From: an uncultured Candidatus Saccharibacteria bacterium
Lineage (GTDB): Bacteria > Patescibacteriota > Doudnabacteria > UBA920
Assembly (NCBI GenBank): GCA_964561085.1
Contig: CAZLNP010000005.1
Coordinates: forward strand, 3,151 to 67,150
Length of the DNA stretch: 64,000 nucleotides
Reading direction: 5' to 3'
The notes under the pieces are model-generated. The model did no database searches, was not told where the DNA came from, and saw only the letters and a list, made by a program, of their open reading frames with translations. This document shows positions 244-2,088 of this stretch, piece by piece. The number at the start of each line of letters is the position of its first letter. Position 1 is the stretch's first letter. A program made the translations under genes and the position numbers.

Positions 244-366
244 TAAATCCAGTATAACAAAAAACGCCATACAAAAGAAAAAGCACCACTTGGCAGTGAT
301 GCGTTTTCTTTTGGAGCTCCATAGTACATGATGTTAGAACAAGTTTTGTGGATTTAAAGCTGGCGG
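244..366 (-). repeat. Copy A of repeated upstream leader/promoter element (short version)
   Basis: Shares aaatccagtata[a/g]caaaa at the gene-proximal end and ggagc.ccatagtaca.gat.ttagaaca.gtttt at the distal end with copies at 1276..1427 and 1923..2088. Confidence 0.6.
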
Positions 367-1275
367 CTATTTAACTAGAGGCTTAGCTAACTCCATGAAA
401 TTCTTGAATGAGACTTTTTTATCAGCACTATAATTTTCAAATATTGAATGGGCTTGTTTAATAAACAGCTGCTCTGTTTTGTCTCCTTTATCATTATTGA
501 TAAAGTCAATATTTCCATTAAATTCTTGAAGTTGCTCCAAAATAGATTGTTTAACCGTTTCTTGGTCAGCCTTATAGTTATGTTTCCATTCTTCTAATTC
601 CTCATTTTCAAAACCACTATCTTTTTTGGCTACCTTGTAAGTTAAGTATAGCAGCACTTCTGTATACGCTTCGCAGAGAGACTTAAAGTCGCCATAGTCT
701 GGGGAGTTTAATAGCTTTGCTATCCTATCCACTTTCTTGCCATCGTAGTTGTTTCTGAGTGTTTTGATTACTTCCTCACTGTTACCAGTCATTAAATCCA
801 AAAAGATTGGCTGGCTTTGACCTATTGGAGTCCATAGCACAGCAGGAAACTCTTCTCTGATAGCTTGAAGATTGTTTTGGTCATCTTGTAAAAATTCTGG
901 AATTGCAGGTTTCCATTGGCTTTCTTCTTTTCCACTATTTTCTAAATCGTGCTCTATGACAACATGAATTAAGTCATGTGCGCCAAATTTTGAATACTGT
1001 TCCGCGTGTTCTCTAATAGCTTCTTTGACTTCATCCAAGTTTTCAAAAGAACCTTTCTCTAAGTTAGTACGTAATAGTATCTCTCCTGTAGCTTTGAATA
1101 ACCGAGCAAGCTCGTCTATTTCGGGTTGGCTTAAATCTCCATCTTCTAACCCAAACATCTTATTAATATAAGATGTTGTGAGCTTTTCAGGGCTATACAT
1201 TTCTTCGACATGCATGGTAATTTCATGAGTAATAGCCTCAGTTTCTAAGTAATTATTTGTTTCAGAATTATTCAT
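367..1275 (-). CDS. hypothetical protein
   Basis: Long minus-strand ORF. Start moved to the internal ATG (MNNSETNNY...) because it lies inside the conserved leader motif ggatttATGAAT. No recognisable catalytic motifs. Confidence 0.55.
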   Translation of the reverse strand: MNNSETNNYLETEAITHEITMHVEEMYSPEKLTTSYINKMFGLEDGDLSQPEIDELARLFKATGEILLRTNLEKGSFENLDEVKEAIREHAEQYSKFGAHDLIHVVIEHDLENSGKEESQWKPAIPEFLQDDQNNLQAIREEFPAVLWTPIGQSQPIFLDLMTGNSEEVIKTLRNNYDGKKVDRIAKLLNSPDYGDFKSLCEAYTEVLLYLTYKVAKKDSGFENEELEEWKHNYKADQETVKQSILEQLQEFNGNIDFINNDKGDKTEQLFIKQAHSIFENYSADKKVSFKNFMELAKPLVK

Positions 1276-1427
1276 AAATCCAGTATAGCAAAATCTTTCT
1301 CTACCCCCTAGTGAAATTATTAGAACCAATTTGGAATAGATTTTACGGTATCATTGTAATTTTCCTCATAAATAATAGGAGCACAATTAAGTGCTCCATA
1401 GTACAGGATATTAGAACAGTTTTGATG
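1276..1427 (-). repeat. Copy B of repeated upstream leader element, with GAGCAC-N6-GTGCTC inverted repeat
   Basis: About 85–90% identical by eye to copy C over ~150 bp (tctctaccccctagt, aatttgga.tagattttac, aggagcaca.ttaagtgctccatagtacaggat.ttagaaca). Confidence 0.65.
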
Positions 1428-1922
1428 TCACCTGCTTAGATTATTCATAACAATTTTTAAAGCTTGAATAGGAGTAGTTTTCGAAGTATCTATTTCAATA
1501 GCATTCGGATACTTAATTAGGCTATGTTTGCTGATATTGCTATTGATTAAGTTCTTGGTGGCCGTTCTGAATTTACTTCTCAAACTGATTCTTTTCCTTA
1601 ATTCAGTGCCTGAGGCTTTAAGATGATAAAAACCAATATTGCATTTATATCTTTTAGCAAGTTTTATAAATTTTTCGGCAAGTTCTTCTGAAGCAACTGT
1701 TTGATTCAGCAATACGCTTACTCCGTTTTTGAAATACTCATCACACATTCTGTATATGATTTTCCAAGCTAGCCCGTTATCTTCCTCTGTTAAAAGAACT
1801 CTTATATCCTCAATCTCAATTATCGCTGTGTTACTGAGTCTTTTTCTTAAAAGCTTAGCTATGGTAGATTTACCTGAACCCATAGCACCATTTATTAAGA
1901 TAAAATTTATTTCTCTTTTCAT
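1428..1922 (-). CDS. P-loop NTPase / small nucleotide(-side) kinase-like protein
   Basis: Walker A motif GAMGSGKST near the N-terminus. 164 aa, AAA_33/shikimate-kinase-like size. Confidence 0.6.
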   Translation of the reverse strand: MKREINFILINGAMGSGKSTIAKLLRKRLSNTAIIEIEDIRVLLTEEDNGLAWKIIYRMCDEYFKNGVSVLLNQTVASEELAEKFIKLAKRYKCNIGFYHLKASGTELRKRISLRSKFRTATKNLINSNISKHSLIKYPNAIEIDTSKTTPIQALKIVMNNLSR

Positions 1923-2088
1923 ACTTCAAGTATATCAAAAACTATCTCTACCCCCTAGTAGATTCGCTCGAACTAATTTGGAGTAGATTTTACAGTAACT
2001 TTGCAATTTTCCCCTAAATAAAAGGAGCACATTTAAGTGCTCCATAGTACAGGATGTTAGAACATCAATCAATTCAGGAAACACTCAA
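1923..2088 (-). repeat. Copy C of repeated upstream leader element, with GAGCAC-N6-GTGCTC inverted repeat
   Basis: See copy B. Sits between the P-loop gene start and the stop of the methyltransferase gene. Confidence 0.65.

What the first reader, a model, noticed from the sequence alone, without database searches (positions are those of the whole stretch)
244..2088. Three copies of a ~100–150 bp conserved leader/promoter cassette upstream of three consecutive unrelated genes
The intergenic regions 244..366, 1276..1427 and 1923..2088 (upstream of minus-strand genes starting at 243, 1275 and 1922) share long identical blocks. In transcription orientation these are: ...TGTTCTAA(C/T)ATC(C/A)TGTACTATGGAGC...; in two copies a GAGCAC-N6-GTGCTC perfect inverted repeat follows; then ...GTAAAATCTA(T/C)(T/C)CCAAATT...CTAGGGGGTAGAGA(A/T)AG...; and in two copies the start context TATACTGGATTT-ATG-AAT, so that two of the genes begin Met-Asn-Asn. 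The downstream genes are unrelated: a hypothetical, a second hypothetical, and a P-loop kinase-like protein. A shared promoter plus a structured ~110-nt 5' leader, duplicated with each gene, suggests a co-regulated cassette set. This could be a common cis-regulatory RNA or operator, or cassette-like gene acquisition with a portable promoter.
Basis: seen in the sequence. Interest (0 to 1): 0.55.

Follow-up and report, generated by a model that had tools for sequence, protein, structure and literature searches.

The report
Junction modules of tRNA-Gly gene-cassette array
The three repeats are not 5' leaders: they are the joints between small accessory-gene cassettes stacked behind a tRNA-Gly gene in a Patescibacteria (CPR) genome, and each joint has a near-invariant 26-nt cassette-end motif, a copy of the tRNA's last bases, a terminator and a promoter that sits directly on the next start codon.

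Summary
A 26-nt block, TGTTCTAAYATCMTGTACTATGGAGC, occurs three times on the minus strand (341-316, 1418-1393, 2064-2039) and nowhere else in the 64 kb. Copies B and C are 85% identical over 149 nt. Copy A shares only the two ends.

The "structured 5' leader" reading fails. Each ATG lies exactly 6 nt after an extended -10 box (TGnTATACT), which predicts leaderless mRNAs. The block lies 9-25 nt after the stop codon of the upstream gene and abuts an intrinsic terminator.

Relatives give the context. The repeats sit in a hypervariable stretch immediately downstream of tRNA-Gly(GCC). The block ends in ...GGAGCTCCA, and the tRNA ends in ...GCCGCTCCA. The same "tails" (terminator plus promoter) follow CTCCA after the tRNA and after the block. 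Profile and similarity searches of 236 kb from this clade found nine full blocks and one truncated one. All lie in such arrays and separate different genes in each genome. No recombinase is nearby.

Best reading: these are junctions left by repeated insertion of promoter-bearing cassettes at the tRNA-Gly 3' end, later shuffled by homologous recombination. The anatomy is shown; the mechanism is inferred.

The parts
5425..5498 (-). tRNA-Gly(GCC), the anchor of the array. Its 3' end is ...TTGGCCGCTCCA.
   Evidence: ARAGORN and Rfam; sequence. It is 97-100% identical in all relatives.
5393..5424 (-). Tail T1 directly after the tRNA's CCA (TCAAAATTCCGCCCCTAAAGGGCGGTTTTTTG). It is an intrinsic, bidirectional-looking terminator with its stem at 5400-5416.
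   Evidence: The same tail family follows the block in L003, L007, L011 and L020. The stem is 91.7% paired, with 2 compensatory pairs across 12 copies.
2089..5391 (.). First unit of the array. It holds a 289-aa wHTH-like gene (+, 4522-5391) and, transcribed divergently from it, the cupin - methyltransferase - GTP cyclohydrolase II - methyltransferase operon (-, 4459-2089).
   Evidence: Pfam. This gene set is absent from the same place in L003, L007, L008, L010, L011, L012, L018 and L022.
2039..2064 (-). Block C, the cassette-end motif, 24 nt after the stop codon of the methyltransferase gene.
1938..2043 (-). Tail T3 of junction C. It contains hairpin GGAGCAC-TTAAAT-GTGCTCC (2043-2024) plus a U-run, and then a second, T1-like stem-loop TCTACTCC...GGGGTAGA (about 1987-1947) plus TTTTTG.
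   Evidence: It is 85% identical to L011 13128-13278, which lies in front of a different gene.
1929..1937 (-). Extended -10 promoter TGATATACT, 6 nt before the ATG at 1922.
   Evidence: Sequence. TTTTTGnTATACT lies 6 nt before the start codon at most junctions read across the loci.
1428..1922 (-). Cassette gene: a P-loop kinase (AAA_33 / AAA_18 / Zeta-toxin-like).
   Evidence: Pfam. Homologues sit in other array positions in L011 and L020.
1393..1418 (-). Block B, 9 nt after the stop codon of the kinase gene.
1291..1397 (-). Tail T3 of junction B (hairpin at 1397-1378, then a T1-like stem-loop).
1282..1290 (-). Extended -10 promoter TGCTATACT, 6 nt before the ATG at 1275.
367..1275 (-). Cassette gene P2 (302 aa, no Pfam family).
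   Evidence: A 67%-identical homologue in L007 is also preceded by a block junction.
312..341 (-). Block A plus TCCA. Together they form the 10-bp palindrome TGGAGCTCCA. The block begins 25 nt after the stop codon of P2.
272..311 (-). Tail T2 (AAAGAAAACGCATCACTGCCAAGTGGTGCTTTTTCTTTTG), a terminator with its stem at 302-283. The same sequence directly follows tRNA-Gly in L007 and L018.
251..259 (-). Extended -10 promoter TGTTATACT, 6 nt before the ATG at 244.
1..244 (-). 5' part of gene 1 (196 aa in L004, no Pfam family). An IMP-cyclohydrolase-like gene follows it beyond the window.

Best explanation
The three repeats are the junctions between gene cassettes in a hypervariable array that starts at the 3' end of tRNA-Gly(GCC) in a Patescibacteria genome.

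Each junction is composite:
1. A near-invariant 24-26-nt cassette-end block, (NN)TTCTAAYRTCMTGTACTAYGGAGC, lies 2-25 nt after the stop codon of the upstream gene.
2. TCCA follows, so the block ends like the tRNA (GGAGCTCCA versus GCCGCTCCA). In copies B and C a 12-nt insert turns this point into a 7-bp hairpin.
3. A 'tail' comes next. It belongs to the same sequence families (T1, T2) that follow the genuine tRNA-Gly, and it is an intrinsic terminator.
4. The terminator's U-run merges into an extended -10 promoter, TTTTTGnTATACT, placed 6 nt before the next ATG. The next gene is therefore probably transcribed as a leaderless mRNA.

Shown: this anatomy; its restriction to the tRNA-Gly array; the sharp switch of sequence exactly after CTCCA; and the different gene content in each relative.

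Inferred: the array grew by repeated site-specific insertion of promoter-bearing cassettes at the CTCCA end of tRNA-Gly. In this model the block is the cassette-borne half of the recombination site, the recombinase is encoded elsewhere, and the original tRNA trailer is pushed to the distal end. RecA-dependent recombination between the repeated modules then reshuffled genes, tails and even the first codons.
For: Anatomy.

The same tails follow tRNA-Gly and the block. T1 follows the tRNA in the window, L003, L008, L010, L011 and L022, and follows the block in L003, L007, L011 and L020. T2 follows the tRNA in L007 and L018, and follows the block in window copy A, L003 and L011.

The most distal block known in each of three arrays is followed by T2 (window, L011 and L003, whose contig ends soon after). 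T2 is the trailer that sits on the tRNA in relatives L007 and L018.

L011 carries an internally deleted tRNA-Gly copy (GCGGCCATG-CCGA-TTGGCCGCTCCA) at one junction.

Profile and similarity searches of 236 kb from this clade found 9 full blocks and 1 truncated block, all inside these arrays, with no diverged copies elsewhere. Mean pairwise identity of the block is 93-95%, against 31.5% for the 30 nt upstream. Core genes of the same genomes are only 70-76% identical at the DNA level and 68-83% at the protein level.

Gene content between tRNA-Gly and the conserved distal genes differs in every relative.

The kinase occurs with three different left-hand modules and different first codons (MKRE versus MNNH).

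The terminator stems show compensatory changes.

Leaderless layout: TANNNT ends 5-9 nt before the ATG in 19 of 48 ORFs, against 11% of all ATG triplets.

Precedent: successive integrations at a tRNA that push older elements inward are described for tycheposons (bioRxiv 10.1101/2020.12.28.424599).
Against: No integrase or other recombinase was found within 10 kb of any array, nor among the window ORFs of at least 100 aa that were scanned.

The sequence shared with the tRNA is only 6 nt (GCTCCA), which is much shorter than usual att cores.

The block has no inverted-repeat architecture beyond TGGAGCTCCA.

No free or circular cassette was found, and no plasmid or viral copy.

The pairing of tail with gene is not fixed, so simple 'tail + gene + block' units do not explain everything, and homologous recombination must be invoked as well.

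The T1/T2 alternation after the tRNA can also be explained by an ancestral tandem tRNA-Gly duplication followed by deletions.

Transcription start sites and RNA 3' ends are predicted, not measured.
Confidence: 0.5

Rival explanations
1. Punctuation module without site-specific recombination. The block would be a functional RNA or DNA element of the 3' end of cassette transcripts, for example a binding or processing site that mimics the tRNA 3' terminus, or an mRNA 3'-end stabiliser. The block-terminator-promoter modules would have spread only by local duplication, natural transformation and RecA-mediated recombination within a gene-transfer hotspot next to a tRNA cluster.
For: RecA is present and no recombinase was found. 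Modules of 75-150 nt give enough homology for recombination. Genes, tails and first codons are reassorted independently. The block always lies in the transcribed 3' flank, in the sense orientation, just before a terminator. The T1/T2 pattern can be derived from a decayed tandem tRNA-Gly.
Against: Homologous recombination alone does not explain how the first block-GCTCCA junction arose exactly at the tRNA's last base. It also does not explain why the tRNA's own trailer reappears after the last block. No RNA structure involves the block. No factor is known that would hold 24 nt nearly invariant.
Confidence: 0.25
2. One reading: a shared promoter (TACTAT) followed by a structured ~110-nt 5' leader, that is, a cis-regulatory RNA or attenuator that co-regulates the three genes.
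For: The B/C region folds better than its shuffles (z = -2.66). It is 83-85% conserved in L011 in front of a third, unrelated gene. One inner pair shows a compensatory change.
Against: The extended -10 box lies 6 nt before each ATG, a layout that is common across this genome. The first structure after the supposed start site is a terminator hairpin with a U-run. The motif reads TACTAC in L003 and L007. The sigma-70-type scan found no promoter with both hexamers at the block. The distance from block to ATG ranges from about 50 to about 145 nt. Copy A and the T1-type junctions lack the long region entirely. No Rfam hit was found. The second stem of T3 looks like a T1-type terminator with an enlarged loop.
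Confidence: 0.08
3. An operator or protein-binding DNA site. The palindrome TGGAGCTCCA (split into GGAGCAC-N6-GTGCTCC in B and C), with the block as a flanking half-site, would bind a dimeric regulator or nucleoid protein that co-regulates or insulates the cassettes. A variant of this idea is that the block is a target of the LAGLIDADG-like endonuclease encoded next to tRNA-Gly, which would stimulate gene conversion in the array.
For: The palindrome sits at the junction. A wHTH-like gene lies in the first unit, and an HTH/LAGLIDADG-like ORF lies directly upstream of tRNA-Gly in the window and most relatives. The reverse complement of the block resembles positions 5-24 of the tRNA-Gly gene (2 of 500 shuffles reach the score). 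A long asymmetric conserved site is typical of homing-endonuclease targets (established knowledge).
Against: The block's distance to the downstream promoter is not fixed. L003 has blocks but no LAGLIDADG gene in its tRNA cluster. The similarity to the tRNA 5' part is weak and is not recovered by a profile search. Nothing directly links any of these proteins to the site.
Confidence: 0.08
4. A dispersed miniature repeat (REP/BIME-, MITE- or Correia-like element) that happens to have three copies here.
For: The element is short and intergenic, contains a hairpin, and carries terminator and promoter activity, as Correia elements do (established knowledge).
Against: There are no copies in the other 62 kb of the window, and none outside the array in 236 kb from relatives. 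There are no terminal inverted repeats and no target-site duplication other than CTCCA. All copies have the same orientation. There is a single hit in 185,579 species genomes, and that hit is the same locus in a relative.
Confidence: 0.03

Closest known systems
tRNA-targeting integrative elements and the islands they build, such as tycheposons of Prochlorococcus (bioRxiv 10.1101/2020.12.28.424599) and classical tRNA-linked genomic islands
   Same: A variable island sits directly 3' of a tRNA gene. The end of the tRNA is repeated at internal junctions. The stacking is consistent with newer insertions pushing older ones, and the original trailer, away from the tRNA. The cargo is accessory genes in a streamlined genome. 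A decayed partial tRNA copy lies inside the island (L011).
   Different: No integrase, replication or excision genes are found in or near the array. The units are single genes of 0.65-1.1 kb (one of 3.4 kb), not multi-kb elements. The tRNA-derived repeat is only 6 nt, not about 40 nt. A non-tRNA 24-26-nt block is the conserved junction signature.
Integron cassette arrays and CALINs (clusters of attC sites lacking an integrase; PMC4889954)
   Same: There is a tandem array of mostly single-gene cassettes, all in one orientation. A conserved site lies at the 3' end of each cassette. Content varies between relatives. No adjacent integrase is present, as in CALINs.
   Different: There is no attC-type imperfect hairpin with R''/L''-L'/R' symmetry. 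The anchor is a tRNA 3' end, not attI. Each cassette brings its own promoter and terminator, whereas integron cassettes are mostly promoterless. The block is almost invariant in sequence, whereas attC sites are conserved in structure rather than sequence.
Intrinsic terminator followed by an extended -10 promoter that drives a leaderless mRNA
   Same: The tails have a G+C-rich stem with compensatory changes, a U-run, then TGnTATACT with the ATG 6 nt downstream. This is the expected geometry for a transcript that starts at the A of the AUG.
   Different: Here the terminator-promoter unit is a portable, repeated module fused to a cassette-end block. Start sites and 3' ends have not been measured.

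Membership tests
Integron / CALIN cassette array | attC site: an imperfect inverted repeat (R''-L'' ... L'-R') that folds as a single-stranded hairpin, with RYYYAAC and GTTRRRY core sites | tested here: not met
   The block has no inverted partner in any tail. The only symmetry is TGGAGCTCCA or the 7-bp GGAGCAC/GTGCTCC stem. TTCTAAC is a near-miss to RYYYAAC, and no complementary GTTAGAA occurs downstream (read). IntegronFinder's attC covariance model could not be run.
Integron / CALIN cassette array | An IntI tyrosine recombinase next to the array (integron), or at least typical attC sites (CALIN) | tested here: not met
   There is no Phage_integrase or other recombinase family within 10 kb in nine loci, and none among the scanned window ORFs.
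Integron / CALIN cassette array | Cassettes mostly promoterless and expressed from Pc | tested here: not met
   Each cassette gene has its own TGnTATACT box 6 nt before the ATG, and a terminator precedes that box. This is a sequence prediction only.
tRNA-targeting integrative island (tycheposon-like) | Location at the 3' side of a tRNA gene, with direct repeats of the tRNA 3' segment at element boundaries | tested here: inconclusive
   The array starts at the last base of tRNA-Gly. The junctions repeat GCTCCA (6 nt), and one L011 junction repeats TTGGCCGCTCCA plus GCGGCCATG. The repeat is far shorter than usual att sites.
tRNA-targeting integrative island (tycheposon-like) | An element-encoded tyrosine recombinase and mobility genes | tested here: not met
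   None is found in or near the arrays (same calls as above). A recombinase acting in trans cannot be excluded with these data.
tRNA-targeting integrative island (tycheposon-like) | Excision or circular intermediates, or empty sites, in populations | not testable with these tools
   This needs read-level analysis of the source runs (for example SRR12762285, SRR12762274, SRR35672346).
Riboswitch / cis-regulatory 5' leader RNA | Lies between the transcription start and the start codon, has a structure conserved with covariation, and matches a described family | tested here: not met
   The promoter abuts the ATG. No Rfam match approaches a gathering score. Covariation is limited to terminator stems.
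Intrinsic (Rho-independent) terminator | A G+C-rich stem-loop followed by a U-run, downstream of a gene, with the stem kept by compensatory changes | tested here: met
   Terminator-like sites lie at 2043-2024, 1397-1378, 302-283 and 5416-5400. The T1 stem is 91.7% paired, has 2 pairs with double changes, and 0 of 500 shuffles reach the observed values. The T2 stem shows U-A to C-G changes between the window and L018, L011 and L003.
Dispersed repeats (REP/BIME, MITE, Correia-like) | Many copies scattered over the genome; terminal inverted repeats or a REP-type palindrome | tested here: not met
   All copies lie in one array per genome, in one orientation, without terminal inverted repeats.

The most novel reading that the evidence does not exclude
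A previously undescribed cassette-capture system of Patescibacteria. Single-gene cassettes, each carrying its own terminator and leaderless promoter, would be inserted at the last bases of tRNA-Gly(GCC) through a roughly 30-nt cassette-borne site (TTCTAACATCCTGTACTATGGAGCTCCA) that imitates the tRNA 3' terminus. The recombinase or nuclease would be encoded elsewhere in the genome, or on a helper element, and may be of a new kind. Functionally this would be an integron analogue in ultra-small genomes.
Probability: 0.3. Interest if true: 0.8.

Novelty: new variant of a known kind. Interest (0 to 1): 0.55.

Why it matters
Patescibacteria have tiny, streamlined genomes, and little is known about how they acquire accessory genes. 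This locus shows a compact, modular way of stacking and expressing foreign genes (kinases, methyltransferases, nucleotide-metabolism enzymes, unknowns) behind a tRNA gene. Its junction motif is far better conserved than the core genes. If the motif is a recombination site, it defines a new cassette system and a searchable marker for the flexible gene pool of this clade. In any case, the terminator/leaderless-promoter module is a clean example of how such genomes punctuate transcription, and it warns against reading upstream conservation as a 5' leader.

Tried and rejected
- Sigma-70 promoter at TACTAT: rejected. The sigma-70-type scan found no promoter with both hexamers at the block, the TG is misplaced, and two copies read TACTAC.
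- T7-like single-subunit RNA polymerase promoter (the block resembles ...CACTATAGGGAGA): dropped. The window is cellular, there are only three clustered copies, and a terminator follows at once.
- boxA/Nus antitermination site (TGTTCT...AACA): a resemblance recalled from memory only. It could not be tested because no rRNA leader was available.
- Known RNA families: no hit above noise.
- attC, Xer/dif-like, IS200/IS605-like and Tn7-like end architectures: the expected symmetry, hairpins or TG...CA ends are not present (reading).
- Collection scans with block patterns: two metagenome scans and four viral scans found nothing. Phage and plasmid BLAST gave only chance hits or none. The one genome hit was the orthologous locus of a relative, binned as 'Chitinophagaceae' but syntenic with the window.
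- The conserved minus-strand gene of about 196 aa at the distal edge as a hidden recombinase: rejected. The window-lineage copy (from L004) and the L011 copy have hydrophobic, signal-peptide-like N-termini and no Pfam family.
- Block as antisense or inverted copy of the tRNA-Gly 5' part: suggestive by one alignment test but not seen by the profile search. Left as unexplained.
- Coding potential of the repeats: rejected, because of indels between B and C and the variable phase after the stop codons.
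Full report
**1. Observation**

On the minus strand, the 26-nt block TGTTCTAAYATCMTGTACTATGGAGC occurs exactly three times: copy A at 341-316, copy B at 1418-1393 and copy C at 2064-2039. 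None was expected by chance, and no further copy appears in the 64 kb even with three mismatches. The two internal blocks (GTAAAATCTAYYCCAAATT and CTAGGGGGTAGAGAWAG) exist only in B and C. The start context TATACTGGATTTATGAA is exact in A and B. B and C are 84.6% identical over 149 nt. A shares only 26-33 nt at the upstream end and 27 nt at the downstream end. The same arrangement is found in independent public assemblies, so it is not an assembly artefact.

**2. Where transcription probably starts and stops**

- Each ATG lies exactly 6 nt after an extended -10 box (TGTTATACT, TGCTATACT, TGATATACT). That geometry puts the transcription start on the A of the ATG, which gives a leaderless mRNA.
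- This layout is a property of the genome. A TANNNT hexamer ends 5-9 nt before the ATG in 19 of 48 ORFs, against 11% of all ATG triplets. Only 6 of 48 ORFs have a Shine-Dalgarno-like motif.
- Immediately after the block lies a terminator-like hairpin with a U-run, at 2043-2024, 1397-1378 and 302-283.
- The block begins 24, 9 and 25 nt after the stop codon of the upstream gene.
- The repeat is therefore made of a 3' flank, a terminator and a promoter. It is not a leader.
- The putative TACTAT -10 inside the block reads TACTAC in two homologous copies. The sigma-70-type scan found no promoter with both hexamers at the block.
- No Rfam family matches.

**3. Organism and locus**

The window is a cellular Patescibacteria (CPR) genome. 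It carries scattered tRNAs, IF-2, RbfA, NrnA, RecA, FtsK, SMC and ribosomal proteins, and one NrnA homologue carries a source name from that group. The single hit of a block pattern in 185,579 species genomes (L003) is the same locus in a relative. That hit is binned as 'Chitinophagaceae', but its RbfA and NrnA are 68-70% identical to the window's, and the same tRNA cluster follows them. Further relatives were fetched through homologues of NrnA, P2 and the kinase.

**4. The key comparison**

In all these genomes the tRNA cluster ends with tRNA-Gly(GCC), whose 3' end reads ...TTGGCCGCTCCA. The block ends ...TA(T/C)GGAGC, followed by TCCA. What follows CTCCA is drawn from the same small set of 'tails' whether the tRNA or the block precedes it.

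- **T1** is TCAAAAYTCCGYCCCTAAAGGGCGGTTTTTTG, which runs straight into TTATACTGGATTTATG. It follows the tRNA in the window (5424-5393), L003, L008, L010, L011 and L022. It follows the block in L003, L007, L011 and L020.
- **T2** is AAAGAAAAYGCATCACTGCCAAGTGGTGCTTTTTCTTTTG. It follows the tRNA in L007 and L018. It follows the block in window copy A, L003 and L011.
- **T3** is the B/C type. The sequence GGAGC|TCC is opened by a 12-nt insert into the hairpin GGAGCAC-N6-GTGCTCC, followed by about 40 nt and a T1-like stem-loop with an enlarged loop. T3 recurs in L011 at 85% identity, in front of a Peptidase_S51 gene.

The layouts are:

- Window: tRNA-Gly|T1|(wHTH gene; cupin-MT-GTP cyclohydrolase II-MT)|block C|T3|kinase|block B|T3|P2|block A|T2|promoter|gene 1-IMP cyclohydrolase.
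- L011: tRNA-Gly|T1|226-aa gene|block|T3|S51-kinase|block|T1|206-aa gene|block|T2-T2ext|T1|SRAP-APH-...
- L007: tRNA-Gly|T2-T2ext|T1|TylF methyltransferase|block|T1|P2 homologue-APH.
- L003: tRNA-Gly|T1|267-aa gene|block|T1|lipoprotein|block|T2...
- L008: tRNA-Gly|T1|MT-IMP cyclohydrolase. L018: tRNA-Gly|T2|MT-IMP cyclohydrolase. Neither has a block.
- L010, L012 and L022 also have no blocks.

In L011 the stretch called T2ext is an internally deleted tRNA-Gly copy, GCGGCCATG-CCGA-TTGGCCGCTCCA.

**5. Distribution and conservation**

- A profile of the block, searched over 236 kb of this clade, finds the nine full copies at E of 6e-8 or better and nothing else below E of about 4. One truncated copy, found by reading and by similarity to the tails, lies at the end of contig L020.
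- All copies lie in the array behind tRNA-Gly and in the orientation of the genes.
- Mean pairwise identity of the block is 93-95%, against 31.5% for the 30 nt before it.
- Core genes of the same genomes are 70-76% identical in DNA.
- The T1 stem keeps pairing through compensatory changes: 91.7% of cells are paired, two pairs show double changes, and 0 of 500 shuffles reach the observed values. The T2 stem shows U-A to C-G switches. Both findings fit functional terminators.
- The kinase gene appears in three contexts. In the window it follows T3 and begins MKRE. In L011 it is the second gene, after S51. In L020 it follows T1 and begins MNNH, with no block after it. The modules therefore recombine independently of the genes, and the shared module reaches into the first codons (ATGAATAA).

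**6. Mechanism**

Shown: the composite anatomy, the sharp change of sequence exactly after CTCCA, the reappearance of the tRNA's own trailer after the most distal block known in three arrays, the restriction to one hypervariable locus, and gene content that differs in every relative.

Inferred: repeated site-specific insertion at the tRNA-Gly 3' end. In this model the block-CTCCA is the cassette-borne half-site, and older units and the original trailer are pushed distally. Such stacking is described for tRNA-targeting tycheposons (10.1101/2020.12.28.424599). Homologous recombination between modules would follow.

Against the model:
- No recombinase lies within 10 kb of any array or among the scanned window ORFs.
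- The shared core is only 6 nt.
- The block has no attC-like or Xer-like symmetry.
- No circular, plasmid or viral copy was found.

The main rival is that the block is a functional 3'-end element and that the modules spread by duplication and RecA-dependent exchange in a transfer hotspot. That rival cannot explain how the first block-CTCCA junction arose at the exact end of the tRNA.

**7. The long B/C region**

The region folds better than its shuffles (z = -2.66). A second stem, TCTAYTCC/GGGGTAGA, is conserved in three copies, with one G-C to G-U change and one compensatory inner pair. With three sequences this is inconclusive. By sequence the stem looks like a T1-type terminator with an enlarged loop, followed by the same TTTTTG-TATACT promoter.

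**8. Comparison and verdict**

- The locus works like a tRNA-anchored integration hotspot or an integron-like cassette array, but it fails the membership tests for integrons. It has no attC architecture, no IntI, and its cassettes carry their own promoters.
- It lacks the integrase and the long partial-tRNA repeats of tycheposon-like elements.
- It is not a riboswitch or leader, and it is not a dispersed repeat.
- I rate it a new variant of a known kind. The descriptive part has high confidence and the recombination mechanism has moderate-to-low confidence.
The cassette-with-portable-promoter idea is supported, and the structured-leader idea is not.

Noticed in passing
window 6309-6597 (minus strand): tRNA-Phe(GAA) appears to be split by a group I intron (Rfam RF00028, 6351-6575, 66 bits). 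The exons, at about 6597-6564 and 6349-6309, match the uninterrupted tRNA-Phe of L003 (2134-2208) and of L007. The intron sits in the anticodon loop. ARAGORN does not call this tRNA.
   Followed up: partly
window 5548-6243 (minus strand); L008 11650-12345 and 15776-16495; L010 11339-12010; L011 11610-12287 and 20179-20856; L007 8011-8679: An HTH_23 / LAGLIDADG_3-like ORF of 220-240 aa sits inside or next to the tRNA cluster, usually directly upstream of tRNA-Gly. Some relatives have a second copy after the SLT gene. It looks like a free-standing homing-endonuclease gene. A link to the cassette array is untested.
   Followed up: partly
whole window: Leaderless gene layout is common. A -10-like TANNNT ends 5-9 nt before the ATG in 19 of 48 ORFs (11% for all ATG triplets), and only 6 of 48 have a Shine-Dalgarno-like motif.
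   Followed up: yes
L011 15189-15240; L007 9070-9130: Downstream of tail T2 lies a G+C-rich stretch. In L011 it ends as GCGGCCATG-CCGA-TTGGCCGCTCCA. This is an internally deleted tRNA-Gly copy (an acceptor-stem minihelix with CCA), and tail T1 follows it. It hints at an ancestral tandem tRNA-Gly or an old att duplication.
   Followed up: partly
window blocks 316-341, 1393-1418 and 2039-2064, compared with tRNA-Gly 5425-5498: The reverse complement of the block aligns with positions 5-24 of tRNA-Gly (CCATAGTACAGGATGTTAGAAC versus CCATGGTTCA--ATGGTAGAAC). Only 2 of 500 shuffles reach this score, and the block does not align in this way with tRNA-Phe or tRNA-Val. A profile search does not recover the similarity. 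Unexplained.
   Followed up: partly
window 2089-5391: The first unit of the array is a small operon (cupin, SAM methyltransferase, GTP cyclohydrolase II, second methyltransferase) with a wHTH-like gene transcribed divergently from it. This gene set was not seen at this place in any relative examined and may be a small nucleotide- or pterin-modifying pathway. An IMP-cyclohydrolase-like gene is the conserved distal neighbour of the array in several relatives.
   Followed up: no
window 38947-42573: A run of six consecutive genes with T4SS_pilin (PF18895) domains.
   Followed up: no
L003 (JBGTIL010000524.1): This contig is labelled as a Chitinophagaceae MAG. It is syntenic with the Patescibacteria window (RbfA and NrnA 68-70% identical, same tRNA cluster, same junction modules), so it is probably mis-binned.
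   Followed up: partly
window 6787-6873 (+), compared with L003 1932-2018: tRNA-Leu(GAG) is oriented opposite to nrnA in the window and in L007, but in the same direction as nrnA in L003. This is a small local inversion between relatives.
   Followed up: no
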